A stretch of DNA of 64,000 bases, from NCBI RefSeq assembly GCF_024223415.1, contig NZ_CP100500.1, one strand, 5' to 3'. Made by a program: the position numbers and the translations under genes. The stretch is from Escherichia coli. Lineage in GTDB: Bacteria > Pseudomonadota > Gammaproteobacteria > Enterobacterales > Enterobacteriaceae. Under the pieces are notes generated by a model. It was not told the DNA's origin. It saw only the letters and a list, made by a program, of their open reading frames with translations, and did not search any database. Positions 18,137 through 64,000 of this stretch are shown in pieces (the stretch's first letter is position 1; each line of letters opens with the position of its first letter).

Positions 18137-18140
18137 TGGA

Positions 18141-48670: not shown

Positions 48671-49930
48671 TCAACCAATCCCCATGCTTTCAGCCAGTGC
48701 TTCCAGCGCCTGTTCAAAACACGCCAGCGGTGCCCGCACGGTGCCTGCGCCAATCTGCCCGATCCCCGCCTCTTTATGGGCGATACCGGTATTGATGAGT
48801 GGCGTAATGCCGGTTTCTACCACGCGACGAATGTCCAGTCCCAGGCACGCGCCCTGAAAATCCCAGCTTGGGATCTGCAACTGCATATTGCGTTCAAGGT
48901 AAATTTCCGCCATCTCTTCAGATACCGCCCTGGCCGCTTCCATGCCACCCGCACCGACAAAGCGCGTTACGCCAGGCGCTGCGATCATTGCCGCACCTCC
49001 GATACCAAAGGTTTCGGTAATCGCGCTATCGCCCATATCCGGGTTCGCCTGCTCCTGCGAGAAGCCGGTGAAAAACAGACCTTGCGGAGTGTTTACAGGC
49101 GCAGTAAACCAGCGTTCGCCCAGCCCGCTTACCCGAATCCCGAACATATTGCCGTTGCGGGTCATTGCCGTGACGATGCTGCCTGCGCGGATCATCGCGC
49201 CAGCATCCATCGCCGCCTTGCAGTAAGCCATCGCGAGGTTGAGGAAGAACTGATCGGTCACGCTGAGGAAATCCATCACTTCCGCGATGTGCTGTTTATC
49301 ATGATCGAGGCGAGCAATTTGTGGGGCCAGCGCACGCATTAACAGTGCTGAGGAAGCAATATTGCGTTGATGGAACTCATCGCCCATCGTAATGCCCTGC
49401 GCCATCATCGCAGTAAGATCGATACCGCGCTCCATGCGCCCCAGCGCCGCGCTTAATACTGGCATTAACACATCGCGCATCCAGCGATGGCGAGTCAGGA
49501 CATCTTCGCCGTAAGCGCCAAAACGCATCACTTTGCCGATACCTTCGTTGAGGTTGCAGTACGCCCGGTTGCCGTCGGTCACGTTCTCGACCACCAGCAT
49601 CGGCATACTGGCAGAAGTAATACCGCCCATTGGCCCGACGGCATTCACATGGTGACAAGGAATGAAGTTCACTTCCCCCAGATCCAGCATCGCCAGTGCC
49701 TGCGCTTCATCTTTCGCCCAGCCTTCAAACAGACATGCGCCCACGCACGCCCCTTTCATTGGCCCGGTCATCTCCTGCCAGCGCATTGGTGGCCCGGCGT
49801 GAAGCAGTGTTTTGCCCTGGTTTAACGCACTGATGAGTGAAGATGCTGGTTTAACATCCAGCCAGTGTGGACGAGCGCGACGAATTTGTTCGATAACCGC
49901 AGCATTGGCTTGCGCCACTGATGTAAACAT
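48671..49930 (-). CDS. ylbE: DUF1116-family protein YlbE
   Basis: 419 aa ORF between fdrA and ylbF. Confidence 0.8.
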
Positions 49931-49939
49931 GGGAACCCC

Positions 49940-51607
49940 TTATTGCAAACGTTCTAATAAACGAGCCAGTTTTTTATTGCCGCCGGCGACTGGCGCCCAT
50001 TGGTAATGCACCACCGGTTTGCTGGCGCTTTGTAGTTCCAGCGCAAAACTGCGTAATCCGATGTTAATCACGGCGACGTTTTCCAGTAATGACGGTGTGT
50101 GTTGCTGTGCGGCAGGCGAGAGCGGATGAATTAACGCTGCCGCCAGCAAGGTGGCTTCCGGTAGCGAACTCACGACCGCAATCCCCGCATCTTCCAGCGT
50201 GGCGATTTGCTGCGAGCGGCATTGCGGGTCACGTTCAGTGCCTGTCACCGTGGCAATGGCATACAGTGGTTGATTGTCTGAACGCGCAGCACAGGCTTTT
50301 TGCCAGGCGCTTACCAGCGAGGCGGCAGGATCGGCGGTCGCACCGAAGCCAATCACGACATCAAGCAGCAGCACACGCACTTGCGGTTTAGCGCCGAGAT
50401 CGGCAATTAACTGGTTGCGTAAGGTTGGGTCGATCATCGGATGGGGACGCCCGACTGTGTAGAAATCATCGCCGAGGTCAATAATCTGGTGACCATCGGC
50501 GTCGAGCATCATGCCGTGATGATGGGCATCATCGGCTTCCACGCCAAGGTGTCCGGCAAGTAATCCCGCCGCTTCGGCAGCCAGCGTACCGCCGGTATAC
50601 AAACCGCAAATAAATCCGCTGCTGGCAGGCGTTATCGCGTTACGTCGCGCCGTAACGCGTGAAAGCAGGCAAGCCAGGCGTGCGGCCTCATCCAGCGAGG
50701 AGGCAAACCAGACATTCTCGTCGCGGGCCACCGCCGGGGTATAACCTAAAAACAGCGCCACCGTCGGTTTGCCGGTTGCTTTCATGGCATTAACAATTTT
50801 CAGACGCACCGCTTCGGCAGGTGGTTTTGAAACAAATGCCAGCACTTCGCTTTTCTCGTCTGCACTGAGCATCTCCAGCGCCGTCAGCGCACTGATGCCG
50901 CCCACTTCACGGCTGAGGTCGCGGCCGCCAAGGCCAATCGCGTGAGTAATTCCCTCCCCTGCCAGCGCAATCTGCGAACACAGCTCCTGAATCCCGGTAC
51001 CGGAAGCGCCAATGACGCCAATATTGCCTTCCGGCATCACGTTAGCAAAAGCCAGCGGCGTGGCGGCAATCATCGACGTACCGCAGTCCGGCCCCATCAC
51101 CAGCAAGCCTTTTTCCCGCGCGCGGGTTTTAAGTTGGATTTCATCTTCCAGCGTGACGTTATCGGAGAACATCATCACGTTGAGGTTGCGATCCAGCGCC
51201 TGATTCGCCAGCTCCGCCGCATACTCGCCAGCCACTGAAATCAGCGCCAGATTGGCATCGGGTAATTTCTGACAGGCACTGTCCCAGCGACGCACCTGCG
51301 TCAACGCCTGGCTGCTGCCTGACCCCTGCGCCAGTTGTTTTAGCGCCTCTTCAAGCTGCTGCATAATCGCCTGCGCGATCCCCGCATCCGCCGCTTCGCT
51401 ACGAATTGCCACGCAAATATCGTTCGGCGTGGCGTTATTAAAATCGTCATGCCAGAAACCTGTGGTATCTAATAACGCTTTATTGGCGGGCGTACCCATC
51501 ATTACGGAAACATCATCAACATTTTCTGATTCGCTGAGTTTTCGTGAAATAATCATTAAACTGACCGAATCCTGAAAACACCCTTTTTTAATAAAGGCGT
51601 GGATCAT
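49940..51607 (-). CDS. fdrA: FdrA (acyl-CoA synthetase/CoA-binding-like)
   Basis: 555 aa; succinyl-CoA synthetase-like domains. Confidence 0.85.
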   Translation of the reverse strand: MIHAFIKKGCFQDSVSLMIISRKLSESENVDDVSVMMGTPANKALLDTTGFWHDDFNNATPNDICVAIRSEAADAGIAQAIMQQLEEALKQLAQGSGSSQALTQVRRWDSACQKLPDANLALISVAGEYAAELANQALDRNLNVMMFSDNVTLEDEIQLKTRAREKGLLVMGPDCGTSMIAATPLAFANVMPEGNIGVIGASGTGIQELCSQIALAGEGITHAIGLGGRDLSREVGGISALTALEMLSADEKSEVLAFVSKPPAEAVRLKIVNAMKATGKPTVALFLGYTPAVARDENVWFASSLDEAARLACLLSRVTARRNAITPASSGFICGLYTGGTLAAEAAGLLAGHLGVEADDAHHHGMMLDADGHQIIDLGDDFYTVGRPHPMIDPTLRNQLIADLGAKPQVRVLLLDVVIGFGATADPAASLVSAWQKACAARSDNQPLYAIATVTGTERDPQCRSQQIATLEDAGIAVVSSLPEATLLAAALIHPLSPAAQQHTPSLLENVAVINIGLRSFALELQSASKPVVHYQWAPVAGGNKKLARLLERLQ

Positions 51608-51923: not shown

Positions 51924-52973
51924 ATGAAAATCAGTCGGGAAACACTCCACCAGCTAATTGAGAATAAACTCTGCCAGGCTGGGTTAAAACGTGAGCACGC
52001 TGCAACCGTGGCTGAAGTATTGGTTTACGCCGATGCCAGAGGGATCCACTCTCATGGCGCGGTGCGCGTGGAATACTACGCGGAACGCATTTCAAAAGGC
52101 GGCACCAACCGCGAACCGGAGTTTCGTCTTGAGGAAACCGGGCCGTGCTCGGCAATTTTACATGCCGACAATGCCGCCGGACAGGTCGCGGCGAAAATGG
52201 GTATGGAACATGCCATCAAAACCGCCCAGCAAAATGGCGTTGCGGTGGTCGGTATCAGCCGGATGGGTCACAGCGGCGCAATCTCTTATTTTGTGCAGCA
52301 GGCAGCCCGCGCCGGATTAATTGGCATTTCGATGTGCCAGTCCGATCCAATGGTGGTGCCGTTTGGCGGCGCGGAAATTTACTACGGTACTAACCCACTG
52401 GCCTTTGCCGCGCCGGGAGAAGGCGACGAGATCCTTACCTTTGATATGGCGACTACCGTACAGGCATGGGGAAAAGTGCTCGACGCCCGCTCGCGTAATA
52501 TGTCTATCCCGGATACCTGGGCGGTCGATAAAAACGGTGCACCAACAACCGATCCGTTCGCGGTACATGCTCTGCTCCCCGCAGCCGGGCCGAAAGGGTA
52601 TGGCCTGATGATGATGATTGACGTCCTCTCAGGCGTCTTACTCGGCTTACCGTTCGGGCGACAGGTTAGTTCGATGTATGACGATTTACACGCCGGGCGT
52701 AATTTGGGGCAATTACATGTAGTTATTAACCCGAACTTTTTCTCCTCCAGCGAATTATTCCGTCAACATCTTAGCCAGACCATGCGCGAATTAAATGCCA
52801 TTACCCCCGCGCCCGGTTTTAATCAGGTTTATTATCCCGGACAGGATCAGGATATTAAACAACGCAAAGCCGCCGTCGAAGGCATCGAAATTGTTGATGA
52901 TATTTACCAGTATTTAATTTCCGACGCGCTTTATAACACGTCATACGAAACGAAAAATCCCTTTGCGCAATAA
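51924..52973 (+). CDS. allD: Ureidoglycolate dehydrogenase AllD
   Basis: 349 aa Ldh_2-family protein. Confidence 0.9.
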   Translation: MKISRETLHQLIENKLCQAGLKREHAATVAEVLVYADARGIHSHGAVRVEYYAERISKGGTNREPEFRLEETGPCSAILHADNAAGQVAAKMGMEHAIKTAQQNGVAVVGISRMGHSGAISYFVQQAARAGLIGISMCQSDPMVVPFGGAEIYYGTNPLAFAAPGEGDEILTFDMATTVQAWGKVLDARSRNMSIPDTWAVDKNGAPTTDPFAVHALLPAAGPKGYGLMMMIDVLSGVLLGLPFGRQVSSMYDDLHAGRNLGQLHVVINPNFFSSSELFRQHLSQTMRELNAITPAPGFNQVYYPGQDQDIKQRKAAVEGIEIVDDIYQYLISDALYNTSYETKNPFAQ

Positions 52974-52994: not shown

Positions 52995-54230
52995 ATGATT
53001 ACACATTTTCGTCAAGCCATAGAAGAAGCGCTGCCCTGGCTTTCCTCATTTGGCGCTGACCCAACGGGTGGGATGACCCGTTTACTTTATTCGCCGGAAT
53101 GGCTGGAAACCCAGCAGCAATTTAAAAAAAGAATGGCCGCAAGTGGGCTGGAAACACGTTTCGATGAAGTGGGGAATTTATACGGTCGCCTGAGTGGCAC
53201 CGAATATCCACAGGAAGTGGTTCTGAGCGGTTCGCATATCGATACCGTGGTTAACGGCGGTAACCTCGACGGGCAATTCGGCGCGCTGGCGGCGTGGCTG
53301 GCAATTGACTGGCTGAAAACTCAATACGGCGCACCGCTGCGTACGGTTGAAGTGGTGGCGATGGCGGAAGAAGAAGGCAGCCGCTTCCCGTATGTTTTCT
53401 GGGGCAGTAAAAATATCTTTGGGCTGGCGAATCCTGACGACGTGCGGAATATCTGTGATGCCAAAGGAAATAGTTTTGTCGATGCGATGAAGGCTTGCGG
53501 ATTTACTCTGCCGGACGCCCCGCTAACTCCGCGTCAGGATATTAAAGCCTTTGTCGAACTGCATATCGAACAGGGCTGTGTGCTGGAAAGTAATGGGCAA
53601 TCAATTGGCGTGGTGAATGCAATTGTCGGGCAACGTCGCTATACGGTGACGCTGAACGGCGAATCAAACCATGCAGGCACCACGCCGATGGATTATCGTC
53701 GTGATACGGTTTACGCTTTCAGTCGCATTTGCCATCAGTCGATCGAAAAAGCGAAAAAGATGGGCGACCCGCTGGTGCTGACCTTTGGTAAGGTGGAGCC
53801 GCGCCCGAATACGGTGAATGTGGTGCCGGGTAAAACCACGTTCACCATTGATTGTCGTCATACCGACGCCGCCGTGCTGCGTGATTTCACCCAACAGTTA
53901 GAAAACGACATGCGGGCGATTTGCGATGAAATGGACATTGGTATTGATATCGATTTATGGATGGACGAAGAACCCGTGCCGATGAATAAGGACCTGGTCG
54001 CCACCCTGACAGAATTGTGTGAAAGTGAAAAACTGAATTACCGGGTGATGCACAGTGGTGCCGGGCACGACGCGCAAATTTTCGCGCCTCGCGTGCCGAC
54101 CTGCATGATTTTCATTCCCAGCATCAATGGGATCAGCCATAACCCGGCGGAACGCACCAATATTACCGACCTTGCCGAAGGGGTCAAAACGTTGGCACTC
54201 ATGCTTTATCAACTTGCCTGGCAGAAATAA
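52995..54230 (+). CDS. allC: Allantoate amidohydrolase AllC
   Basis: From MITHFRQAIEEALPWLS; M20 peptidase family. Confidence 0.9.
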   Translation: MITHFRQAIEEALPWLSSFGADPTGGMTRLLYSPEWLETQQQFKKRMAASGLETRFDEVGNLYGRLSGTEYPQEVVLSGSHIDTVVNGGNLDGQFGALAAWLAIDWLKTQYGAPLRTVEVVAMAEEEGSRFPYVFWGSKNIFGLANPDDVRNICDAKGNSFVDAMKACGFTLPDAPLTPRQDIKAFVELHIEQGCVLESNGQSIGVVNAIVGQRRYTVTLNGESNHAGTTPMDYRRDTVYAFSRICHQSIEKAKKMGDPLVLTFGKVEPRPNTVNVVPGKTTFTIDCRHTDAAVLRDFTQQLENDMRAICDEMDIGIDIDLWMDEEPVPMNKDLVATLTELCESEKLNYRVMHSGAGHDAQIFAPRVPTCMIFIPSINGISHNPAERTNITDLAEGVKTLALMLYQLAWQK

Positions 54231-54644
54231 GGAGTCATAAATGGGATATATCTATAACTTATTTTCAATAAGGTATTGATTTAATTAAACAACTTACACT
54301 ACAAAAAGTGCCAAAAATCGCAAATTAACTACACCATTAACTACACCGTTCGGCGCACTGTATGAAACAACGTGGAACAAATAGGCACAAGAAATATAAA
54401 GGCGGGTAATTTTAAGGGGGCGTTGCTGTCGATACGGGGATCCACATATCGAGATTGATACCTGGCTTTTTTTCCGGTTAACCTTTAATCAGGCTGGTGG
54501 GCTTTACCTGTTCTGTAGGAGTGGTCATTATGACCATTCAGCCAATGACCTTAATCAGAATTTTTCGCTAAAAAATGACGTTGGCCACGTCATCCGGAAA
54601 GCACAAAATCACGTCGATTTTTAATGGATGGTTAAACCGTCTTT

Positions 54645-54950
54645 TTGTCACGGTGTGTCACTGGTTGTCACGCTCTGTCACGATGTCCGGCCTCCTCACA
54701 TTGAGGATTGTGGAAGAATCAATGGGTTAGTCTTACTACCCAAACTACGGGTAGTTTCCGTAGTTTCATGGTCGAGTTGCAGATCTGCAACTCCCCCATC
54801 AACCACAGGCGAATTTCCGCCTTCGGTCATTCCTTAATCATCTGCGTAATCATAATGATTATTCAGCCACCTCAATTTTGAGGTTTGCTTTAAGTTCAGC
54901 GAGTTACCGCGCCGACTTCCTCAAATTGAGGTTTCCGAAAATATCAGTGG
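54645..54950. repeat. Repeat-dense non-coding region (phased TGTCAC repeats, CCTCA-N-TGAGG palindromes, 20-bp perfect palindrome)
   Basis: TGTCAC x4 at exactly 10-bp spacing (54645-54680); palindromes CCTCACATTGAGG (54693), CCTCAATTTTGAGG (54870), CCTCAAATTGAGG (54919); GAGTTGCAGATCTGCAACTC (54774-54793). Confidence 0.6.
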
Positions 54951-55087
54951 GTTAGCGATTAAGCTGACCATTAATTAAACTGCGAAAATTTCGTAGTTTG
55001 TGACTGTCTTTCAGGCAGCTTGTTATCAGTCCTCAGATGTGAGGGATGTAGCCAGCGCAATTTTGCGTTATCGGGAATATCAGCAAG

Positions 55088-55369
55088 TTACCGCCGTAAC
55101 CGTTCCGGCTTCTTCCACTGATAAGTGTTTTTCGCGCTCTCCTGATACATCGCCACGCGTCGACGGTATGCCAGCAACTCTAGTACTCTGATTCGTATGT
55201 CGCGCATATCCACGCCGTTAAGCTCAATACCATCACGGCGCATTACATCAGCAACAACACGCACGTAATTTTCGGCGATCACGCTGTCCGGCTGCGTGGC
55301 CTGTTCGTCATGCTGCTGGCTGATTCCGGTAACGCGGCGGATTAATCCCAGTAGTTCGGCTTCTGTCAT
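55088..55369 (-). CDS. Hypothetical protein
   Basis: 93 aa ORF at the end of the element's minus-strand gene series. Confidence 0.35.
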   Translation of the reverse strand: MTEAELLGLIRRVTGISQQHDEQATQPDSVIAENYVRVVADVMRRDGIELNGVDMRDIRIRVLELLAYRRRVAMYQESAKNTYQWKKPERLRR

Positions 55370-55661
55370 TGTGCCCCCATCGCTCTGATAGTCTGGTGTC
55401 GTCGGGTCCTTCTGGAATTATGGCCCGTTACGGGGCGTCGACCTCGCGGTTTTTCGCTATTTATGAGCTTTTTTAGAGGGAGGTTGTTGTTTAATTGTTT
55501 GTCATATCCATTTGATAACTAAGTAAAAATAAAGAGCAATACAACAACCTGATAGTGTTTTTTTGATGCTAAAAATAAAAAAATACTAATTGAATCAAAT
55601 AGTTTTAAAAAAATACGTGGTTGTTGTATTGCGTATTTGATGGCGTAACAGAAAGTGATTT

Positions 55662-56102
55662 TTAACTTTGCTGTTCTGTAACGACTGATTGTTCCATGCT
55701 GGCACGGCGAACGCTTACGGCATGACGCCACCCAGCCAGAAAGCCAGCCATTTTATTTCGTGCCTTGCTCACATCTTCCGGTGAATAGCCGTAAATATGC
55801 AAACCTTCATCAAATCGCTGTTCTGTTTCTTCACTGAAATACTCGTCGCGCTCTGACGCAATCAACCTGGCAACCATAATCTTTTCCAGTGCGCTGGTTT
55901 CTCCGTGGTACTCAATAGCATCAAGATGGCTTTTACCCATGCACCAGAATAATGTGTGTCCGATGTGATAACCGCCGGACTTTCCGCGATCCGCATCAAG
56001 ATATGGCATGCCCTGTTTGGTCCATGCGCGAATAGTGGTTCTGTTGACCTTGAAATGTTCTGCTATTTCCTGCTGACTCACAAAACAAGCTTTATCAATC
56101 AT
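55662..56102 (-). CDS. Nu1-like HTH protein (terminase small subunit-like / packaging specificity candidate)
   Basis: 146 aa; N-terminal SQQEIAEHFKVNRTTIRAWTKQGMPY...GGYHIGH resembles lambda Nu1 N-terminal DNA-binding domain. Confidence 0.45.
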   Translation of the reverse strand: MIDKACFVSQQEIAEHFKVNRTTIRAWTKQGMPYLDADRGKSGGYHIGHTLFWCMGKSHLDAIEYHGETSALEKIMVARLIASERDEYFSEETEQRFDEGLHIYGYSPEDVSKARNKMAGFLAGWRHAVSVRRASMEQSVVTEQQS

Positions 56103-56235
56103 AATGTTACCTTAATCATGCGATTAAATGTTAATCAAGTGGTGGTGGTGTCACCTTCACGGAAAAACGTCATAAATAGCGAAAACGCGCGAGGTCGACG
56201 CCCCGTAACGGGTCCACATGCCGGAAAGGACCCGC

Positions 56236-56258
56236 AAAAAAAGCCGGATTTCTCCGGC
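56236..56258 (-). terminator. Intrinsic terminator
   Basis: Minus-strand hairpin GCCGGA-loop-TCCGGC followed by TTTTTTT, downstream of ORF 56265-56678. Confidence 0.45.
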
Positions 56259-56264
56259 CTTGTC

Positions 56265-56678
56265 TCAGATGGTTTTCAGTATGCGATCGATGTCGCCGTC
56301 ATCGCCCTGGTTTGTGCCATCGTATGCCATGCCAGCTGATACGGCTTTCGGGCTGTGCATGTCCATAAAGTTTTCAAAGGCTGAAGTAAGCTCTGGTGCA
56401 ACCTTCGGGCGTTCCTGCTCTATGGTCATGCTAAGGATGCTTTTAGCCGTACCAACATCGATACAAGGCACGTTAGCCATTGCACGTAACAGCGGCTGGT
56501 AGTCGTCAGATTCATGAAGCGCCATAATCGCATCAGCGCGCGGCTTGTCCTGTTCTTCCAGTTTGTTGAGTCGGTGTATGGCCTCGTAGGTTGATAAACC
56601 TCTGTCAGCCATTGCCCGCGCTTCGGCTTTAAATTTACTCGCCAGCGGTAGCTTCATGATACTTTCATTCGTTGCCAT
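56265..56678 (-). CDS. Hypothetical head-module protein
   Basis: 137 aa acidic protein directly downstream of the gpD-like gene. Confidence 0.35.
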   Translation of the reverse strand: MATNESIMKLPLASKFKAEARAMADRGLSTYEAIHRLNKLEEQDKPRADAIMALHESDDYQPLLRAMANVPCIDVGTAKSILSMTIEQERPKVAPELTSAFENFMDMHSPKAVSAGMAYDGTNQGDDGDIDRILKTI

Positions 56679-56690
56679 CGTTCCCCCTGC

Positions 56691-57026
56691 TTATCGTGCC
56701 AGCGGCTGAACGGATACGCCGGAACCCGCAAAGGCGGCGCATTTTTTCGCATCGGTGTCGACGCTATCAGGCCAGTTAACGGCGGCAATATTGAATATCC
56801 CCGTTTTGTAACACTGTGCTGATTTCTGCTTTGACGTGTCCACGGGGTGCGAAGTCAGATAAACAGCTTTGCCAGATTCCTGACCATCCCACGCCTTAAA
56901 CTCGCCATTGTCTGCCAGCATCAGCGGGGTAAATTCCTGAATAACGCCAGCATCAGCGGCAAAATGTACCAGCGTCGTGGATACCTGCTGGCTGCCTGAA
57001 AATAACTCAATGTATGGAGCGTCCAT
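56691..57026 (-). CDS. Head decoration protein (lambda gpD-like)
   Basis: 111 aa; ...LMLADNGEFKAWDG...AAFAGSGVSV resembles gpD; adjacent to gpE-like gene. Confidence 0.6.
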   Translation of the reverse strand: MDAPYIELFSGSQQVSTTLVHFAADAGVIQEFTPLMLADNGEFKAWDGQESGKAVYLTSHPVDTSKQKSAQCYKTGIFNIAAVNWPDSVDTDAKKCAAFAGSGVSVQPLAR

Positions 57027-57037
57027 AGAATCCCCCG

Positions 57038-58093
57038 TTAAGCAATTTTGACGGTAACAAATTTGCGAATATCTGCCGGTACCGGCTGCGGTGCGCTGTG
57101 CGTCTGCACGTACTCAATCGCCGGATCGCCGTCCTCAATCCAGTTTTTCGGGTAGTACATGTTTTGCGTTGCGCCCGTTCTTACCGCTTCCTGATCCATA
57201 ATCGCACCATATGCCACCAGCCCTTTATTGTTGGTGTTACCCAGGACCAGCAAATCAGGCTCAAGGAAATATTTTTCGGTGCCGTCGCTGTCAGTGTATT
57301 TGCCGGAATAGACGATAAGGGCCAGATCACCAAGATAGCCTTTAAAGCTCACCACTTCGCCCAGGTTTTTACAGGCCAGCTCGGCGGCGGATTCTGACCC
57401 ACGGGAAAGATCGTACAGTTCACGGAATTTTTTAAAGCTGCGTAATGTGCGCCATACCTCACCGCCCATAATCATGACGTTGGCGGGGCAACCTGCCTGA
57501 TCAGCATAAAGCTCGATGTCATAGATTGGGTCGTGCATGTCTTTATCCTGCTGGGACCATTTTTTACCACTGGCCTGCTGTATGATGCAGTTTTCCGGTA
57601 TTTTCCAGTCGATTTCATAGCGTTCTATGCCTTCGCCCTCAATGATGTTTTTTCCGGTCGTTACCGCATTCACCGCCAGCCATTCAACACGCGCTTTAAT
57701 GGCGTTTACCTGGCGGCGCATGTTGCCAGTAATCAGGCGCATACGGCGATAGGTTGGGTCGTTAAGCTGTGCCGGATCTTCTCCAGCCATGCGCATGATG
57801 GTCTTTGTTGGATCGATTTCGTGCTTTGGCTTCATGTAGCCTGGTTTAATCGTGCTGGTTTCGTACCCTTTATCGCGCTGGACCTGACTACCCACCATAG
57901 GAGAACAGAACGCAGACATCGTAACCTCTTCAATGTCCAGGGTGTCCAGCATGATGTTTTGGGTGTTGAAGGTCGCCACGTTCGGGAAAAACAGCGTGGT
58001 AAACAGCGGACTAAATTTAAATTCCGAAATATCCCCGCGATTCAGGTACGCGAAAAGCTGGTTAGTTGTAAGTGCCGTTGCTTTGCCTGTCAT
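57038..58093 (-). CDS. Major capsid protein (lambda gpE-like)
   Basis: 351 aa; shares with lambda gpE the blocks PGYMKPKHE, EDPAQLNDPTYRR, YSGKY, YPKNW..GDPA, SAP. Confidence 0.8.
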   Translation of the reverse strand: MTGKATALTTNQLFAYLNRGDISEFKFSPLFTTLFFPNVATFNTQNIMLDTLDIEEVTMSAFCSPMVGSQVQRDKGYETSTIKPGYMKPKHEIDPTKTIMRMAGEDPAQLNDPTYRRMRLITGNMRRQVNAIKARVEWLAVNAVTTGKNIIEGEGIERYEIDWKIPENCIIQQASGKKWSQQDKDMHDPIYDIELYADQAGCPANVMIMGGEVWRTLRSFKKFRELYDLSRGSESAAELACKNLGEVVSFKGYLGDLALIVYSGKYTDSDGTEKYFLEPDLLVLGNTNNKGLVAYGAIMDQEAVRTGATQNMYYPKNWIEDGDPAIEYVQTHSAPQPVPADIRKFVTVKIA

Positions 58094-58299
58094 TATTCAC
58101 CTCCGTGAACCTGATTGATACCCAGCGCCGCACGTAAATAGGTGCGCACCTGCCAGCCTGTTGACGGCTCAACCATCGCCAGCGGATCAAGTCCTGCCGC
58201 AATGCCTGCTTTTACATTCTGCTGGTGGCGTTCCTTGAGCGCCTCCACGATGTCGGGGCTTATGTAGACCGTCACCCCGCCTTTTTTCTCTTCTGCCAT
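58093..58299 (-). CDS. Hypothetical small protein upstream of capsid gene
   Basis: 68 aa ORF whose stop overlaps the capsid start. Confidence 0.3.
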   Translation of the reverse strand: MAEEKKGGVTVYISPDIVEALKERHQQNVKAGIAAGLDPLAMVEPSTGWQVRTYLRAALGINQVHGGE

Positions 58300-58466
58300 A
58301 GTCAGAAATTCCTCTTTGACTTAAAAAATCATAACTGGATGTTCATCCAGTCCTGATTATAATCATGATTGCATTTTGTGCAATAATGTTGAGTTGTGTT
58401 GCAAATTATGAAATGATTATCCCGATCATGTGTGTCAGTGCACCATAAAAAACCTCGTATACAAAA

Positions 58467-58532
58467 GCCCGATAAGCCCCCTGTGACCTTATCGGGCTTT
58501 TTTTAGGCGTAAAAAAGCCGGATTGCTCCGGC
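58467..58532. terminator. Back-to-back intrinsic terminators
   Basis: Plus-strand hairpin GCCCGATAAG-loop-CTTATCGGGC + T7 (58467-58504) and minus-strand hairpin GCCGGA-TTGC-TCCGGC + T6 (58511-58532) just downstream of the PerC-like gene. Confidence 0.5.
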
Positions 58533-58539
58533 TGTGTGC

Positions 58540-58812
58540 TCACTTCTGCGGGTAGTTGCGCCATATTGCTTTGCCAATACCAGCTATCCCCATTTGTTTT
58601 TCAGTGCGATTAACTGACCTTTTCAGAGCGCCTAAATCATCCGGCGGCTCCGGTGGCCTCTGTGCCTTCCGTGAACATTCCAGCCGTCGCATTGCCACCT
58701 GTGCGCGTTCCTTGTCTGTCTCCACCAGCATCATCACTTCACCCCATCGCGCGGCCGCCCTCCGGTAAAATCCTTTCGCCTCCAGTTCCTCCGCTATCCG
58801 GTCATGTACCAT
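58540..58812 (-). CDS. PerC/ANR-like putative regulator
   Basis: From MVHDRIAEELEAKGFYRRAAARWGEV with GAGGGGG RBS; motif shared with prophage ORF 25038-25532. Confidence 0.4.
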   Translation of the reverse strand: MVHDRIAEELEAKGFYRRAAARWGEVMMLVETDKERAQVAMRRLECSRKAQRPPEPPDDLGALKRSVNRTEKQMGIAGIGKAIWRNYPQK

Positions 58813-58822
58813 CGTCACCCCC

Positions 58823-59233
58823 TCAGAACGGAATATCATCACCGTAAGGGTCATCGCCTCCCGCTGGTGGCTGATTACCCTGTGTGCCTGTGGTTTTGCG
58901 TCTGTTCCCGCCAGGACGTGCCGCACGGGCACTGATTACGCTGTCTGCGATGACCTGCCAGCCCTGCCGCGTTTCGCCGTTCTGGCCTGTCCACTGGCTT
59001 ACCTGCATGTTACCCGCCACGCTCACCAGTTCGCCTTTGTGGTGTCTGGCCAGTGCGTCGGCCTGTCTGCCAAACGCCAGGACGGATAACCACATCGTCG
59101 CCGTTCCGTCATCTGCCTGGCTGCATGGCAGGGGAACCGCCATACTCGCCATCGCCATTTGTGTCCCTTTGCTGGTCTGTTTTGTCTGCGGGTCGTCCAC
59201 CAGCCGCCCGTAAGCCGCTATCTGTGCTGTCAT
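58823..59233 (-). CDS. ssb: Single-stranded DNA-binding protein (SSB)
   Basis: 136 aa; OB-fold-like N-terminal region, Gly/Pro/Gln-rich linker, C-terminal acidic tip ...GDDPYGDDIPF typical of SSB. Confidence 0.7.
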   Translation of the reverse strand: MTAQIAAYGRLVDDPQTKQTSKGTQMAMASMAVPLPCSQADDGTATMWLSVLAFGRQADALARHHKGELVSVAGNMQVSQWTGQNGETRQGWQVIADSVISARAARPGGNRRKTTGTQGNQPPAGGDDPYGDDIPF

Positions 59234-59487
59234 GCTGTCTGCTCTCCGGTTTTAACATTGATGGTTGTCACCTGTTCCGCTCCGGCAATCTCCCGCTCTG
59301 TCAGCGTGGCAAAGTTTGCCGCCGTCGTTGTCATGAATGCGCTTATCAGTTCGGGATGTGCTTTCGCGTATCCTTCCCCCGTGTTGCGGTCGATGATTTT
59401 TATCGCCACCCTCAGCCAGTGCTCTGTAAGGTCAATGGCGCGGTTATGTGATTTCTTCTGATTGTTAAATTTTTCTGATGTGTGCAT
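59230..59487 (-). CDS. Hypothetical protein
   Basis: 85 aa ORF between origin and SSB, coupled to SSB start. Confidence 0.35.
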   Translation of the reverse strand: MHTSEKFNNQKKSHNRAIDLTEHWLRVAIKIIDRNTGEGYAKAHPELISAFMTTTAANFATLTEREIAGAEQVTTINVKTGEQTA

Positions 59488-59533
59488 TTTTATTTTTACC
59501 CCCTCGTTTAAAAAGTTTTGAGTTGTGGTGCAC

Positions 59534-59766
59534 CTCCTCTACCTCTCTACACAATCATCTTTCAGGTCAGTAATGGCGCGGCTTTCAGCGGGGTAGAGGG
59601 CTTTTTTGGCCCTCTACCCGCCATCTACCACCCCCTCACAAATGCCCTGAATTATGGTAGAGGGTGTAGAGGGCTTTTAAGTACCTTCTACCTGCCATCC
59701 ACCCAATCTATCCACATGAAATATATGTAATTATTTTCTTAAGGTAGAAGGGGTAGAGGGCTTTTG
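59534..59766. repeat. Iteron-type replication origin of the second element
   Basis: Multiple direct and inverted copies of GGTAGAGGGCTTTT (and variants GGTAGAAGG, rc CCCTCTACC) immediately 3' of the primase gene. Confidence 0.65.
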
Positions 59767-59773
59767 TCTAAAA

Positions 59774-61522
59774 CTATAAAAACGCGTCGCAGTCGTCTGT
59801 TGTTGTCACGTTGGTTTGCGTAAACCCTTTAATCCTGCGCGTTATATATTCATGACCGTAAACTTTCGCCGCTGGCTTCATGGCCTTGCTGAACTCAGCC
59901 ACGTTCAGCGGTTTGCTCCTGCCTGCATACGCCATAAACGCCAGATAGACGCGGTAAAGGCTGTTTCTGGTCGTGTACTTCACTGAATCGCCACCGCCGC
60001 CCATCATCAGGCCACGTGCTTCCTCCAGAAAATTCAGGAACTGGCAAAACTCAATAACCGGATCCGTCTGTTGCTTTATTGCCAGAGCTTCATCACCGTC
60101 TCGCTGTTCAATGAGTAAAGCCCGTGCCTTTTCAGGGTCGGCAAAGTTCGCCAGCAAGCGGCGGATAATGACAGGGATTTCAGCCGCGATCTTTTCCGGT
60201 AGCTCCCTGTCTTTTTCTGCCTCGCTTACGATGTTATCGAACCGGAATATCACCCGACGACGTGACACGCCTCCTGCCCGTTCGGTGAATATCATCGGGT
60301 TATTATTGGTTGCCAGCACAACCGCCCTGATTACCGCCGTGAATCGCTTTTCATATTTCGGGTTGATTTCCACGGGGTCGCCGCCCGTGATTTTCTTGAT
60401 GCCCGTTCCTTCGCCTGTATATTTCGGCTGGTCTGCCAGGACAATAAGCCTACTCCCGACAACCTGCGCACGCCCACCAGCATCATCAAGCGATGTCATC
60501 TCAGCGCTTACCGTGTTCTGTTTCCCTGCCAGAAGGCTGGCTATGTGTGTGAATGTACTTTTACCGCTCCCGCCGTCTCCGGTGGCCTCAATAAACATCT
60601 GCCAGTCGTACCGGTTCGCCATAATCATGTACAGCGCGGCACATATACGCATCATCTTGCGCGGGTCTTTTCCGGCAGCGTGATCAAGCCATTTATGAAA
60701 GTTTGGCGCGTTGTCGCGGATATTCTCACCTGGTACTGGCGGCGTGTACTCAATGCCGTTGTGTGTGGTGATCCAGTTCTCCGGCGTGTGCGGGGAAAAT
60801 TCCCCCGTTTTCAGGTCAAGCGCACCATTGGCGAACGGCAGCAAATCGCCGGACGGCTCGCCCATTGGTTCGGCAATAACTTTTAACGCTTCCACGGCGT
60901 TACTGATTACGCGCTTGCTGAAAGTGGCCCTGTGCTCTGAATAGATCGCCACCATTTCGCGGCTCAGTTCCATTGTGCTGACCGGACACCATACCCCGCC
61001 GCGCCATACGTGAACGATTTCACTTTCCAGATGCACACAAACGCCATCAAATCGACCAGCAAGCATCTGTGCGCGCTCACTGTCTGCCATTTGTGCCAGT
61101 TGCGTATTTTTCTGCTCCGGCATGGTAAGCCCTGCGGCAATATTTTCACGCTCAGCATTCAGATAGCGCCGCCAGTTTTCACACTTCTGACCGTGCATTC
61201 CTTCAGAGTAAAAATTCGCATCCTGAATATCTGCCGCCGCCAGCTTCTGACCAATCTTTTTGGTCTCCACTAAATCCAGTTCTCCGGCCTGGTACAGCCT
61301 TACGCGTTTTTTTCCATCCGGAACAATTTTCAGCGCATCAAGTTCAGCAAGCTGATTTGGCCCAAGCCACACAGGCGGCACATTATCGCCGGATGCGGGA
61401 CCGTCCTTCTCCTGCCACTGTTGTGCATGCGACCAGGCATCACTACCCGCAAAGATAATTACCTCTGTGTCTTTGTGTTTTATTCCGCGTGGCTGTTTTT
61501 TTACGTTCGGTGCCAGTTTCAT
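59774..61522 (-). CDS. Primase/replicative helicase (D5_N/Primase_C + SF3 helicase, P4-alpha/PICI Pri-Rep type)
   Basis: 582 aa; Walker A GDGGSGKST; origin iterons directly downstream. Confidence 0.8.
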   Translation of the reverse strand: MKLAPNVKKQPRGIKHKDTEVIIFAGSDAWSHAQQWQEKDGPASGDNVPPVWLGPNQLAELDALKIVPDGKKRVRLYQAGELDLVETKKIGQKLAAADIQDANFYSEGMHGQKCENWRRYLNAERENIAAGLTMPEQKNTQLAQMADSERAQMLAGRFDGVCVHLESEIVHVWRGGVWCPVSTMELSREMVAIYSEHRATFSKRVISNAVEALKVIAEPMGEPSGDLLPFANGALDLKTGEFSPHTPENWITTHNGIEYTPPVPGENIRDNAPNFHKWLDHAAGKDPRKMMRICAALYMIMANRYDWQMFIEATGDGGSGKSTFTHIASLLAGKQNTVSAEMTSLDDAGGRAQVVGSRLIVLADQPKYTGEGTGIKKITGGDPVEINPKYEKRFTAVIRAVVLATNNNPMIFTERAGGVSRRRVIFRFDNIVSEAEKDRELPEKIAAEIPVIIRRLLANFADPEKARALLIEQRDGDEALAIKQQTDPVIEFCQFLNFLEEARGLMMGGGGDSVKYTTRNSLYRVYLAFMAYAGRSKPLNVAEFSKAMKPAAKVYGHEYITRRIKGFTQTNVTTTDDCDAFL

Positions 61523-61818
61523 TTTTTACCCCTGAATACGTTAAGCATCTTTTTTATTTCCTGAATATTGGCGCGTGCTTTCTCCCTGCTGGTTGGTTTA
61601 CTGCGGGGCGCTGCCTGTACCAGAGAAAAATCACGCCGGAACTGATAAACAGGCATCACGCAATCATATTCGTAGCCTTCACGGCGGTAAGTGATGCGCC
61701 GTTCCTCCACGCCTTTAATCGTTACCGTGCCGCCGTACTGGTCGCGGTAAATATCGCCGTTCATAAATTCAGGCCGAGCGGGGCCGCTGGCATTAACGCC
61801 AGTATTTTTCATTCCCAT
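61519..61818 (-). CDS. Small conserved protein upstream of primase
   Basis: 99 aa; motif RITYRREGYEYDCVMPVYQFRRDF shared with prophage ORF 26460-26681. Confidence 0.45.
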   Translation of the reverse strand: MGMKNTGVNASGPARPEFMNGDIYRDQYGGTVTIKGVEERRITYRREGYEYDCVMPVYQFRRDFSLVQAAPRSKPTSREKARANIQEIKKMLNVFRGKK

Positions 61819-61822
61819 ATAA

Positions 61823-62065
61823 TTAAATTCCGTTTGTGTGGTGTTTTAATTCGTCAATTTTTTCTAATGCTTTGTTTATCTTGCTGGTGGAAATATCCAG
61901 CAATTCAGAAATAGCAAATATAAGTCTTGCCGTTGATTCATCTCTTTCGTTGTTTGACAGCAATTGAAACCACACGTTTGTAATTTCAATTGCCGAATTA
62001 TTATAGGTTATTGCACTGTTCATGTATTCCGACACCTCTGCAAGCGAAAGTTTATTATTCTCCAT
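61823..62065 (-). CDS. Hypothetical protein
   Basis: 80 aa ORF in tightly packed minus-strand operon. Confidence 0.3.
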   Translation of the reverse strand: MENNKLSLAEVSEYMNSAITYNNSAIEITNVWFQLLSNNERDESTARLIFAISELLDISTSKINKALEKIDELKHHTNGI

Positions 62066-62246
62066 AACGTTCTACCCTCTCATCAATTAACCACAGTGCA
62101 ACACTTCCTGACAGTCTTGCCAGAAGGCCAGCTAATGCGGATATATCATCATCATTTAATTTATTAGGGTACGCTTCAAGAAGTCTGCAAATAATTTCGG
62201 TTTGGTGGGCGCGTTCAGCGGCTTCGTGTAATGTAATTTCCTTCAT
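62055..62246 (-). CDS. Hypothetical protein
   Basis: 63 aa ORF, overlapping neighbours. Confidence 0.3.
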   Translation of the reverse strand: MKEITLHEAAERAHQTEIICRLLEAYPNKLNDDDISALAGLLARLSGSVALWLIDERVERYGE

Positions 62247-62431
62247 TAATGCACCTCTTTTAATTCATACACTGCTGAAATAATGACTTGTGATAAGCCA
62301 TATTCTGATGATTCGCTTCTCACCGCAGCAATAGCCGTCTGAACATTAACAGCCTTCACATTCTGAGCGATACCAATTGTGTGGCCTAGTGGGTTAACAG
62401 CTCGGGCAAATACACGGAAGGTTTTAAGCAT
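62246..62431 (-). CDS. Hypothetical protein
   Basis: 61 aa ORF, overlapping neighbours. Confidence 0.3.
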   Translation of the reverse strand: MLKTFRVFARAVNPLGHTIGIAQNVKAVNVQTAIAAVRSESSEYGLSQVIISAVYELKEVH

Positions 62432-62831
62432 GGCGCACCCCCTGAATAACCTGATATCCGCAACTGGTCAGCAATTCGATAAATTCCGGCAGAGTGCCAA
62501 AACAGCAATCAGTGCGTAGCTGTTCGCAGGATACCTCAACGCCGTTTTCGTAATGGCTCACTATGCGCCCGGTAAAATGCGGATCATCATCGTGATGGCA
62601 CGTTGACGGTTTCATCAGCCGCGCGCGTTCCGCCAGTTCCAGCAATGCTTCAACGCTTCCGGCAATTGCACCATCCGGCAGGTGATAATTACTTACTACG
62701 CGTCCATTCTCTACATTGACCAGTAGCTGTCCGGTAAATTTCTCACGAAACTGAACGCGGTTAAGATCGGTAAGTGACAGGTTAATCATGGCACACCTCC
62801 TGACGAATACGGGCGGCGAATACAGCGACAC
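62424..62831 (-). CDS. Hypothetical protein
   Basis: 135 aa ORF at head of the minus-strand operon. Confidence 0.35.
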   Translation of the reverse strand: MSLYSPPVFVRRCAMINLSLTDLNRVQFREKFTGQLLVNVENGRVVSNYHLPDGAIAGSVEALLELAERARLMKPSTCHHDDDPHFTGRIVSHYENGVEVSCEQLRTDCCFGTLPEFIELLTSCGYQVIQGVRHA

Positions 62832-63172
62832 AACCGGACGGGCAACGGTTACGCGCTTCGCGTTCTGTCCAGGCGGTCACGTGGATAATTTGAGATTCTC
62901 CGGCACTCAGTGCCAGAAAACGCCACACAAAGGCGGTTTGTGTGTGCGCAAGGCGTGGGGTATGCTGTGTTCCAGCCATAATCGTTACCTCAATTAATGG
63001 TTTGGTTAGAAGCCCGTTGGTGTTCATAGCGCCAGCGGGCTTTGTCTTTTCATCGATTACCTCAATAAAGGTGTCAGCCACTATACTAGTAACAGGTGTC
63101 AGCCACGTCAATAGTGTTTTTCCATTTTCTTGTGTGTATACTGTCAGCCACCTAATAACAAGGAAATCAGAT

Positions 63173-63352
63173 ATGGCAACGAAAGCAGTTAATGGAAAAT
63201 CCAAAAAACTTGAGGCACGAGTCCCCCATGCAATAGCTGACGCTTTAGAAAATTTAAAGGAAGAAGGCGAAAGCACTGGGCAATTTATCGTTTCGGCACT
63301 TGAAGGCGAGATCAAACGCCGCCAGCGCCGGAAGGCCAAAGAATCAGAATAA
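63173..63352 (+). CDS. Small basic protein (possible DNA-binding regulator)
   Basis: 59 aa from MATKAVNGKSKKLEARVPHAIADALENLKEEG...; divergent from the minus-strand operon. Confidence 0.35.
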   Translation: MATKAVNGKSKKLEARVPHAIADALENLKEEGESTGQFIVSALEGEIKRRQRRKAKESE

Positions 63353-63409
63353 TCACTATCAGCGCCGTGGTGTGAGGTACTGCGGCGCATTGTTTTAAAG
63401 GTGATAATT

Positions 63410-63601
63410 ATGAATAACCAAGAACTACAAAATAAAGCATTATCAATTATCATGCGCCAGCGTGAGAAAACCCGCAGGGAAATAAATAAGGCATTAACCC
63501 GCACTGAAAATCTTAAAGTTCCTGATAAGTTCGCCCTTGATCCTTTTGTCGAGAAATACCCTCGGCGCTTAAAAGCAAACAAAAACCGCCCACCTGGCTG
63601 A
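63410..63601 (+). CDS. Hypothetical small protein
   Basis: 63 aa ORF followed by an intrinsic terminator. Confidence 0.3.
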   Translation: MNNQELQNKALSIIMRQREKTRREINKALTRTENLKVPDKFALDPFVEKYPRRLKANKNRPPG

Positions 63602-63635
63602 CAATCCACCAGCAAGCCAGGACACTGATCACATT

Positions 63636-63663
63636 GGCCACCGTGACAGGTGGCCTTTTCTTT
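63636..63663 (+). terminator. Intrinsic terminator
   Basis: GGCCACC-GTGACA-GGTGGCC hairpin followed by TTTTCTTT. Confidence 0.5.
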
Positions 63664-64000
63664 GCCCGTTATCCGGCAATTGTGGCGCTTCGCCACACGG
63701 TTGATATAATCCCACTGCTCATATTCATTTTTTGCGCAGTAGGTTAATTGTTCAGAAAGGCGGCTCCTTATCGGGGCCGCTTTTTTTATGTCTGAAAAAC
63801 CGCGATTTTGTTGTTTTTCAGTTTCACAAGGCCGAACGAAGCCCCGCCCCTGTTCGGGCGTATATCCAGTCTTCATGGTTAAATCTCTGTATTAGTGGAT
63901 GGGTGGCGGCTGTGTGCCGCCAGTCTTTTTAGTGAACTGCCTCGCAGCTTTCCTTCCATGCCAGAACTTCGGATAAAGACCAGCCAACGGAACGACCGCC

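What the first reader, a model, noticed from the sequence alone, without database searches (positions are those of the whole stretch)
54231..55087. Island inserted directly downstream of allC where allE is expected
In E. coli K-12 as recalled, allD, allC and allE (ylbA) form one operon. Here allD and allC are intact, but no allE-like ORF follows allC on the plus strand; the island sequence begins within a few bp of the allC stop. The insertion may have displaced or deleted the 3' gene of the allantoin operon, and identifies this position as the integration site.
Basis: partly seen in the sequence, partly recalled or inferred. Interest (0 to 1): 0.4.

Follow-up and report, generated by a model that had tools for sequence, protein, structure and literature searches.

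The report
Phage satellite inserted into allE start
A roughly 11-12 kb phage satellite of a well-known E. coli family (an EcCICFT073-type PICI) has integrated by site-specific recombination across the start codon of allE. This separates the last gene of the allantoin operon from its promoter and start codon but does not delete it, at an attachment site I did not find in the PICI att-site table I could read.

Summary
allD and allC are intact. Homology to ordinary E. coli continues 19 nt past the allC stop, through the allE ribosome-binding site, the ATG (54241-54243) and two more codons. Satellite DNA begins at 54250.

The island is a classical EcCICFT073-type PICI. It has lambda-like capsid and decoration genes, an RppC homologue, two lambda-type cos sites, PerC, SSB and a D5-type primase. 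It runs off the window end. Integrase, attR and the rest of allE are expected about 1.9 kb beyond base 64000.

Twelve of 5,426 complete E. coli genomes carry the same allC-attL junction. In all twelve an attR-allE junction lies 10.4-14.9 kb away. In the five allE-site relatives read base by base, allE nt 3-786 is intact but ATG has become AAG, with an in-frame TAA just upstream. The 7-bp core GGGATAT is the direct repeat.

So allE is displaced and probably silenced, not deleted, and the insertion is intragenic, not intergenic. allE is absent from the 2018 table of eight E. coli PICI sites. Nearly identical integrases (1 aa difference) also serve tqsA, so the attP overlap may choose the target. 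This is an ordinary mechanism at a rarely used site.

The parts
51924..52973 (+). allD (ureidoglycolate dehydrogenase), intact
   Evidence: ORF. 347/349 residues identical to a K-12-like strain. Annotated as allD in relatives.
52995..54230 (+). allC (allantoate deiminase), intact; stop codon TAA at 54228-54230
   Evidence: 403/411 identical, same start MITHFRQAIE. Annotation under the match.
54231..54249 (+). Native allC-allE spacer with the allE Shine-Dalgarno (GGAG), the allE ATG (54241-54243) and codons 2-3. Here it is a 12-codon stub, MGYIYNLFSIRY*, that runs into the satellite.
   Evidence: Sequence. Comparison with K-12 attB. Frame analysis.
54243..54249 (.). att identity core / presumed 7-bp overlap GGGATAT (attL copy)
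   Evidence: attL, attR and attB compared across 6 allE-site loci. GGGATAT is the only block common to attL and attR.
54250..54349 (.). P' arm of the satellite att site. It holds the core-proximal half-site ATCTATAAC, an IHF-consensus-like site around 54266-54280, and two arm-type repeats ATTAACTACACC (54324-54335 and 54336-54347).
   Evidence: Conserved in PICIs at allE, tqsA and roxA-phoQ. Repeat family D3. The same arm repeats occur next to int at attR. The IHF assignment is by eye against the consensus WATCAANNNNTTR and is an inference.
54350..55087 (.). Non-coding satellite 'tail'. It holds four TGTCAC repeats phased at 10 nt (54646-54681) and four palindrome-plus-box units: 54687-54732, 54862-54910, 54912-54957 and 55046-55093.
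   Evidence: No annotated gene in relatives. No Pfam hit for its small ORFs. No Rfam family at gathering score. Repeats. The stretch 54645-55100 is deleted in AR_0085.
55088..55369 (-). 93-aa conserved satellite protein of unknown function (phrog_1561); last gene before the tail
   Evidence: Present in both classical PICIs and cf-PICIs.
55433..55444 (+). lambda-like cosN (GGGCGTCGACCT), first copy, inside the left arm of a 64-nt inverted repeat (55410-55473)
   Evidence: The flanking sequence matches the lambda left end as I recall it. EcCICFT073 is reported to have two functional cos sites (PMC6092414).
55662..56102 (-). rpp (redirecting phage packaging protein, RppC-like winged-HTH)
   Evidence: PDB 6HLK RppC, E 1.7e-32. 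Weak TerS-like and HTH hits. The start codon lies 101-102 nt from the cos end at 56203, matching the 102 reported for PICI-C (PMC9026076).
56192..56203 (-). lambda-like cosN, second copy, upstream of rpp (right arm of the inverted repeat, 56163-56226)
56265..58299 (-). Capsid module: 137-aa scaffold-like protein (56265-56678), gpD-like head decoration protein (56691-57026), gpE-like major capsid protein (57038-58093), 68-aa protein (58093-58299)
   Evidence: Pfam PF02924 (2e-17) and PF03864 (1e-50). PHROGs. These correspond to c1499/c1500 of EcCICFT073.
58540..61818 (-). PerC-family activator, SSB, D5/P4-alpha-type primase (59774-61522), DUF4222 protein
61819..64000 (-). Small satellite genes and the regulatory region (Icd-like, YlcI/YnfO-like). 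The island runs off the window. alpA-like HTH, integrase, attR and allE are expected about 1.9 kb beyond 64000.
   Evidence: Alignment of the window end to relatives. Gene maps of relatives.

Best explanation
The sequence after allC is the left end (attL) of an integrated phage satellite, a classical EcCICFT073-type phage-inducible chromosomal island (PICI).

How it got there: a P4-family tyrosine integrase, encoded at the far end of the island, recombined the satellite's attP with a chromosomal attB lying on the first codons of allE. attP reads ...TTGATAAAA-GGGATAT-ATCTATAAC.... attB reads ...GTCATAAAT-GGGATAT-TTAAATAAC.... Strand exchange takes place across the 7-bp overlap GGGATAT, which is allE nt 3-9.

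What integration leaves behind:
- The allE Shine-Dalgarno, ATG and two codons stay next to allC, as a 12-codon stub.
- The body of allE moves about 11-12 kb away, behind the integrase gene. There its first codon reads AAG and is preceded by an in-frame TAA.
- allE loses the allD promoter, its ribosome-binding site and its start codon. It is most probably not expressed while the satellite is resident.
- Precise excision would restore the gene.

What is shown: the junction, the identity of the island, the att anatomy, the recurrence of the site, and the state of allE in relatives.

What is inferred: that this genome has the same right junction, that allE is silent, and that the overlap is exactly these 7 bp.
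For: - Junction: K-12-type sequence ends at 54249-54258, inside allE.
- Island identity: lambda gpE/gpD-like capsid and decoration genes, PerC, SSB and primase; an RppC homologue; two lambda-like cosN. These match published EcCICFT073 features (PMC6092414; PMC9026076).
- att anatomy: the same conserved P and P' arms, with arm-type repeats, flank a site-specific core at allE, tqsA and roxA-phoQ. The cores I derive for tqsA (TGCTGTTAT) and ycfD-phoQ (AAATATGTCC) equal the published ones. At roxA-phoQ, attP is a perfect 8-bp inverted repeat around a 7-bp spacer.
- Recurrence: 12 of 5,426 complete genomes have the attL junction, and the same 12 have attR-allE 10.4-14.9 kb away. Further cases appear among draft and other NCBI assemblies and in IMG/VR. 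Occupants include different classical PICIs and a cf-PICI.
- State of allE: nt 3-786 is intact in 5 of 5 relatives, ATG has become AAG, and TAA lies one codon upstream. The first canonical in-frame start is GTG at codon 87, and there is no Shine-Dalgarno before CTG-15. No consensus promoter lies between int and allE.
Against: - The right end of this island is outside the window, and the source genome could not be found. The integrase, attR and allE of this strain are therefore unseen.
- A rearrangement is possible. One relative, L010, has a PICI flanked by two different sites.
- PGAP still calls a 247-aa allE from CTG-15 in AR_0085, so residual expression of a truncated AllE is not excluded.
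- No expression or growth data exist.
- The exact cleavage positions are inferred from sequence identity only.
Confidence: 0.85

Rival explanations
1. The insertion deleted allE (and perhaps neighbouring genes). The island replaced the 3' gene of the operon instead of splitting it.
For: No allE sequence beyond its first 9 nt is present in the window. The right junction is not visible.
Against: All 12 complete genomes with the identical left junction keep allE at the right junction. In 5 of 5 relatives examined, allE nt 3-786 and glxK follow attR without loss. Conservative site-specific recombination does not delete target DNA.
Confidence: 0.05
2. This is a simple intergenic insertion that leaves allE fully functional: either the satellite supplies a start codon or promoter, or the gene is reconstituted as in tRNA-targeting elements.
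For: The 7-bp direct repeat and intact allE body resemble benign integrations. PGAP annotates a 247-aa allE in AR_0085.
Against: The crossover lies inside codons 1-3. At attR the first codon is AAG with an in-frame TAA and TGA directly upstream. There is no ATG/GTG/TTG before codon 87 and no Shine-Dalgarno. int is transcribed away from allE, and no promoter-like site was found upstream of allE.
Confidence: 0.07
3. This is an accidental secondary-site insertion by a tqsA- or phoQ-directed integrase, a one-off and dead-end event, and not use of a genuine attachment site.
For: The site is rare: 12 of 5,426 genomes, against about 1,488 genomes carrying this family's tail. Integrases at allE are 98-99.8% identical to those at tqsA or roxA-phoQ.
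Against: Both junctions carry the same overlap GGGATAT, so the incoming attP already had it. A heterologous secondary-site event would leave different overlaps at attL and attR (reasoning from lambda secondary-site and saf genetics). The site holds several different PICI lineages and a cf-PICI in hosts with different allC alleles.
Confidence: 0.08

Closest known systems
EcCICFT073 and related classical Gram-negative PICIs (Fillol-Salom et al. 2018, PMC6092414; Rpp mechanism, Fillol-Salom et al. 2019, PMC6739421; Feiss et al. 2022, PMC9026076)
   Same: Same gene set and order: lambda-type capsid and decoration homologues, rpp preceded by a lambda-like cos, a second cos, PerC, SSB, primase and DUF4222. 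Relatives carry the same alpA-int end and the same P and P' arms as elements at ycfD(roxA)-phoQ and tqsA.
   Different: The chromosomal site differs. allE is not among the eight E. coli PICI attC sites in their Table S1. The attP overlap is GGGATAT instead of TGCTGTT or TATGTCC.
PICI integration into tqsA (EcCI042 and EcCIK1516 type; core ATAACAGCA)
   Same: Intragenic integration that splits and inactivates a host gene. The integrase is nearly the same (1 aa difference between L005 at allE and L007 at tqsA). The attP architecture and spacing are identical.
   Different: tqsA is cut about 50 codons in, whereas allE is cut at the start codon itself. As a result only translation and transcription signals are removed and the whole coding body survives.
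cf-PICIs (EcCIEDL933 family; Alqurainy et al., bioRxiv 10.1101/2022.09.08.507074)
   Same: They share the int-att module, the 93-aa gene and the non-coding tail. A cf-PICI occupies the same allE site in strain TUM1886.
   Different: The window element has no TerL, P27-type TerS, HNH, portal or protease, so it is not a cf-PICI.
Lambda/HK022-type tyrosine integrase att sites, including site-affinity (saf) variants and overlap promiscuity (PMC7736782 for HK022; lambda saf from my own knowledge)
   Same: Core-type inverted half-sites flank a 7-bp overlap. Arm-type sites lie in both arms and there is an IHF-like site. Target identity is confined to the overlap.
   Different: The integrase belongs to the P4-like group, with Arm-DNA-bind_3 plus Phage_integrase domains. 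No biochemical data exist for this system.

Membership tests
Classical Gram-negative PICI (EcCICFT073 type) | Size about 10-15 kb, bounded by att repeats | tested here: inconclusive
   The window holds 9.75 kb from attL to its end, and the right end is cut off. Relatives at the same site measure 10.4-14.9 kb between junctions. The extrapolated size here is about 11.6 kb.
Classical Gram-negative PICI (EcCICFT073 type) | Capsid (c1499-like) and head-decoration (c1500-like) homologues, but no portal, terminase, tail or lysis genes | tested here: met
   PF03864 and PF02924 hits. No TerL, portal, tail or lysis hits among the ORFs at 55088-61818. Published description.
Classical Gram-negative PICI (EcCICFT073 type) | lambda-like cos site followed by rpp (redirecting phage packaging) | tested here: met
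   cosN GGGCGTCGACCT at 56192-56203 lies 101-102 nt upstream of an RppC homologue (PDB 6HLK, E 1.7e-32). A second cos lies at 55433.
Classical Gram-negative PICI (EcCICFT073 type) | int, alpA-type regulator and pri-rep module, transcribed unidirectionally | tested here: inconclusive
   A primase and upstream small genes are present on the minus strand. int and alpA lie beyond the window and are seen only in relatives.
Classical Gram-negative PICI (EcCICFT073 type) | Induction, replication and high-frequency transfer by a helper phage | not testable with these tools
   This needs lysogen induction and transfer assays.
Classical Gram-negative PICI (EcCICFT073 type) | Attachment site never used by prophages | not tested
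   Only satellites were seen at allE in the genomes inspected. No systematic search for prophages at this site was made.
Tyrosine-recombinase (lambda/P4-type) integration | Short identical core present at both junctions and once in the empty site | tested here: met
   GGGATAT occurs at attL (window and 5 relatives), at attR (5 relatives) and in attB (K-12-like). attR of the window's own island is unseen.
Tyrosine-recombinase (lambda/P4-type) integration | Arm-type integrase binding repeats in both arms, and an integrase with an arm-binding domain | tested here: met
   ATTAACTACACC occurs twice at 54324-54347 and twice next to int at attR. Integrases of relatives carry PF13356 and PF00589.
Tyrosine-recombinase (lambda/P4-type) integration | Precise excision regenerates attB and attP | not testable with these tools
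   On paper, attL x attR across GGGATAT restores ATGGGATATTTAAATAAC exactly. Experimental proof needs PCR.
cf-PICI (capsid-forming PICI) | Own TerL, TerS, HNH, portal, protease and HK97-type capsid | tested here: not met
   None of these is present in the window element. They are present in relatives L004 and L016.
P4-like satellite | psu, delta and sid capsid-size genes, with integration in a tRNA gene | tested here: not met
   No Psu, Sid or Delta hits. The target is a protein-coding gene. Only the primase and an Icd-like gene recall P4.

The most novel reading that the evidence does not exclude
The attachment site may be chosen not by the integrase protein but by the 7-bp overlap carried in attP.

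Evidence for this reading:
- One and the same PICI lineage, 98.3-98.6% nt identical from int to the capsid genes, sits in tqsA in one strain and in allE in another. The two Int proteins differ by a single residue (T34S).
- A second Int allele, 20 aa different, is found both at allE and, at 98% identity, at roxA-phoQ.
- The tqsA and allE attP sequences differ essentially in the overlap: TGCTGTT versus GGGATAT.

On this reading allE would be a naturally 'reprogrammed' target, the equivalent of a lambda saf variant. It would create a reversible knock-out of the last step that yields ureidoglycolate in anaerobic allantoin nitrogen use.
Probability: 0.4. Interest if true: 0.5.

Novelty: new member of a known kind. 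Interest (0 to 1): 0.3.

Why it matters
- For annotation, this explains a 'missing' allE as a split gene, not a deletion. It also flags that carriers (about 0.2% of complete E. coli genomes) are probably impaired in the AllE step of anaerobic allantoin nitrogen recovery.
- For satellite biology, it adds an intragenic attachment site at a start codon to the EcCICFT073 and cf-PICI int-att module. It also gives a clean natural comparison: the same integrase with different overlaps at different targets. That comparison could be used to test how PICIs acquire new chromosomal sites.
- None of this changes how such elements are thought to work.

Tried and rejected
- Looked for the rest of allE in the window by blastn. 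None was found.
- Tried to find the source genome so as to read the right junction. The 582-aa primase is not on record. An 80-aa protein retrieved only related strains at 95-99% nt identity.
- Considered that the 857 bp hold a gene or a known RNA. Its small ORFs have no Pfam hit. Rfam gives only a sub-threshold manA hit (E 0.03, 19.7 bits against 55.2 gathering). Relatives annotate nothing there.
- Considered cosB-like terminase sites in the tail. Rejected because both cos sites lie further in (55433 and 56192), and published work places the Rpp site next to cosN.
- Considered a cf-PICI or P4-like identity. Rejected on gene content.
- Considered that integrase alleles would sort by site. They do not.
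- Checked EcCIDI14, because its published 'att core' equals the arm repeats seen here. It sits in an IS110 transposase gene, not in allE.
- Could not read Table S2 of the cf-PICI paper or Clerget & Boccard 1996 on Roi.

Full report
**1. What is at the coordinates**

The window is the reverse complement of the K-12 map. Reading left to right it has ylbE/allG (48671-49930, minus strand), fdrA/allF (49940-51607, minus strand), allD (51924-52973) and allC (52995-54230). Both all genes are intact: 347/349 and 403/411 residues match a K-12-like strain.

After the allC stop (TAA, 54228-54230) the native sequence continues. It reads GGAGTCATAA, which is the spacer with the allE Shine-Dalgarno, and then ATGGGATAT, the first three codons of allE (54241-54249). 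From 54250 the sequence departs from every ordinary E. coli genome. BLAST carries on to 54258 only because ATCTATAAC resembles the native TTAAATAAC. No other allE sequence exists in the window.

However, the junction lies inside allE, not between genes.

**2. What the island is**

Reading inward from the junction on the minus strand, the island holds:
- a 93-aa protein (phrog_1561);
- a 146-aa winged-HTH protein homologous to RppC (PDB 6HLK, E 1.7e-32);
- a scaffold-like 137-aa protein;
- a lambda gpD-like decoration protein (PF02924);
- a lambda gpE-like major capsid protein (PF03864);
- PerC, SSB, a D5/P4-alpha-type primase and a DUF4222 protein.

Two lambda-type cosN sequences (GGGCGTCGACCT) sit at 55433 (+) and 56192 (-), inside a 64-nt inverted repeat that flanks rpp. 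The cos site at 56192-56203 lies 101-102 nt upstream of the rpp start, matching the 102 reported for PICI-C (PMC9026076).

This is the published anatomy of EcCICFT073-type PICIs: capsid c1499, decoration c1500 and two functional cos sites (PMC6092414). The element has no TerL, portal, protease, tail or lysis genes, so it is neither a cf-PICI nor a prophage. It also lacks the P4 psu, sid and delta genes.

The island runs off the window. Aligned to relatives, base 64000 lies about 1.9 kb short of attR. That gives an element of about 11.6 kb whose alpA-like regulator and integrase are unseen here.

**3. The att site**

I compared six allE-site loci with tqsA-, roxA-phoQ- and IS110-site loci. The allE-site loci are the window, AR_0085 and four NCBI assemblies found through an exact-protein look-up.

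All share conserved arms:
- On the integrase side the sequence ...AACACTAATTGATAAA(A) runs up to the core.
- On the other side, a 25-nt variable block after the core is followed by ATTGATTTAATTAAA..., and then by two arm-type repeats ATTAACTACACC (window 54324-54347).
- The same repeat pair lies next to int.

Between the arms sits a site-specific core:

| Site | Core (overlap) |
|---|---|
| allE | GGGATAT |
| tqsA | TGCTGTT(AT) |
| roxA-phoQ | (AAA)TATGTCC |

My tqsA and roxA-phoQ cores equal those published, ATAACAGCA and GGACATATTT on the other strand. This validates the method. At roxA-phoQ the reconstructed attP is TGATAAAA-TATGTCC-TTTTATCA, a perfect 8-bp inverted repeat around a 7-bp spacer. 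That is the classical core-type layout of lambda-family integrases.

For allE the three sequences are:

| Site | Sequence |
|---|---|
| attB | GTCATAAAT-GGGATAT-TTAAATAAC |
| attL | GTCATAAAT-GGGATAT-ATCTATAAC |
| attR | TTGATAAAA-GGGATAT-TTAAATAAC |

The only block shared by attL and attR is GGGATAT (window 54243-54249). Integrases of relatives carry the Arm-DNA-bind_3 and Phage_integrase domains.

**4. Fate of allE**

Twelve of 5,426 complete E. coli genomes contain the allC-attL junction. The same twelve contain the attR-allE junction 10.4-14.9 kb away.

In the five relatives read base by base, allE nt 3-786 is intact with no frameshift or stop. The first codon, however, is AAG instead of ATG, and the two codons before it are TGA TAA in frame. 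The next canonical in-frame start is GTG at codon 87. CTG-15, which PGAP uses for a 247-aa call, has no Shine-Dalgarno.

int is transcribed away from allE, and no consensus promoter lies between them. The allD-allC-allE genes form one AllS-dependent operon (PMC12535856). The gene is therefore displaced and cut off from its promoter, ribosome-binding site and start codon. It is not deleted, and it would be restored by precise excision.

That it is silent is an inference. That this particular genome has the same right junction is an inference from 12 of 12 complete genomes.

**5. Is the site known?**

The 2018 survey lists eight E. coli PICI attC sites: ycfD-phoQ, tqsA, yejM-luxR, cspD-clpS, lysR-smrA, an IS110 transposase, yicC-dinD and frmR-thiM. 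allE/ylbA is not among them. A full-text search for PICI together with allE, ylbA or allC found nothing.

The cf-PICI paper mentions six attB sites in a table I could not read, so prior listing is not excluded. The site is used both by classical PICIs (the window, AR_0085, L005, L006, L008, L011, and IMG/VR L065) and by a cf-PICI (TUM1886).

It is rare. About 1,488 complete genomes carry this family's tail sequence, mostly at tqsA.

**6. Integrase versus site**

Integrase alleles do not sort by site:
- The Int of L005 (allE) and L007 (tqsA) differ by one residue (T34S).
- The two elements are 98.3-98.6% identical in nucleotide sequence from int through the capsid genes.
- The Int of L008 (allE) is 98% identical to that at roxA-phoQ, yet 20 residues different from L005.

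The tqsA and allE attP sequences differ essentially in the overlap and one adjacent base. An IMG/VR tqsA element (L031) even has the allE-like 25-nt block.

In lambda and HK022, overlap identity between attP and attB, not its sequence, is what recombination requires (PMC7736782; lambda saf mutants from my own knowledge). A reasonable reading is therefore that allE became a target through a change of the attP overlap.

The rival reading is that resident and incoming PICIs recombine in situ and shuffle int. The even divergence between L005 and L007 argues against a local patch but does not exclude this.

**7. The rest of the 857 bp**

Beyond the P' arm, the tail (54350-55087) is non-coding in all annotations. 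It has no Pfam or Rfam identity.

Its contents are:
- four TGTCAC repeats phased at 10 nt (54646-54681);
- four copies of a 48-54-nt unit made of a short palindrome (CCTCA..TGAGG or GCGCA..TGCG), a T-rich stretch, and a conserved box (...AATCARYGGGTTAG or ...AGTTACCG).

Across 62 tails there are 49 distinct units. Of these, 42 have a perfect palindrome of at least 5 bp at the same place, against about 6 (maximum 13) in shuffles. There are 20 different stems, many differing on both sides in a compensating way.

One unit is 90-94% identical to a 50-nt stretch inside the roi (Rha plus KilAC) gene of lambdoid and Stx phages. In some PICIs the units are tandem with a 54-nt period and an open frame. 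The peptide is not conserved there while the symmetry is.

I could not assign a function. AR_0085 lacks the whole array, so it is not needed for maintenance.

**8. Verdict**

This is a well-understood kind of element, a classical PICI, integrated by an ordinary mechanism. The site is rarely used and apparently unlisted, and it happens to be the start codon of allE.

Interest is modest. The integrase/overlap pattern and the tail repeats are the only parts that go beyond routine.

Noticed in passing
window 54687-55093 (units at 54687-54732, 54862-54910, 54912-54957, 55046-55093): The satellite tail carries an array of 48-54-nt units, each a short palindrome plus a conserved box. Across 62 tails there are 49 distinct units, and 42 have a perfect palindrome of at least 5 bp, with compensatory changes between units. 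One unit is 90-94% identical to a 50-nt stretch inside the roi (Rha/KilAC) gene of lambdoid and Stx phages (L097 1501-1550). Units are tandem with a 54-nt period in L016, L006 and L008. Function unknown.
   Followed up: partly
window 54646-54681: Four TGTCAC hexamers are spaced exactly 10 nt apart (iteron-like). They are present only in one tail variant (window, L003, L005, L008, L011).
   Followed up: no
window 55410-55473 and 56163-56226: The two lambda-like cos sites are in inverted orientation inside a 64-nt inverted repeat flanking rpp. Next to it, window 55403-55552/55737 aligns in reverse orientation (81-85% identity) to L007, L009 and L010. This suggests inversion by recombination between the cos repeats.
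   Followed up: partly
L010 (GCA_002573055.1 contig MOXV01000017.1): This PICI is flanked by tqsA on the integrase side and by clpS-clpA on the tail side. That implies a chromosomal rearrangement between two PICI copies at different att sites (tqsA and cspD-clpS).
   Followed up: no
L001 (AR_0085) 16743-18408 and 21445-21478: The closest complete-genome relative has a deletion fusing fdrA/allF and ylbE/allG into pseudogenes. It also has a 455-bp deletion of the satellite tail (window 54645-55100). The window has both regions intact.
   Followed up: no
window 54324-54347; L015 (E. coli clone D i14): The 'att site core' given for EcCIDI14 in Table S1 of Fillol-Salom 2018 (CGGTGTAGTTAATGGTGTAGTTAATT) is the reverse complement of the arm-type repeat pair found in both arms of these elements. 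It is not a crossover core. EcCIDI14 itself sits in an IS110-family transposase gene.
   Followed up: partly
integrases of L003/L004 versus L001/L005/L007 (residues 1-42), with arm repeats at their att sites: The N-terminal arm-binding region of Int comes in two variants that go with two arm-repeat variants (TTAACTACACC versus GTGACTACACC). This looks like protein-site co-variation, independent of the chromosomal target.
   Followed up: partly
window 62446-62803: An approximately 358-bp segment carrying most of a 135-aa ORF is absent from most relatives. It is bounded by a 22-bp direct repeat (62424-62445 and 62782-62803). It is present in AR_0085 (L001).
   Followed up: no
L063 and L056 (IMG/VR): Further variants of the same att module have other cores and flanks (for example ...GGAA-TGCTGAC-ATACATAAC...). 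This indicates additional chromosomal targets, or tqsA of other species.
   Followed up: no
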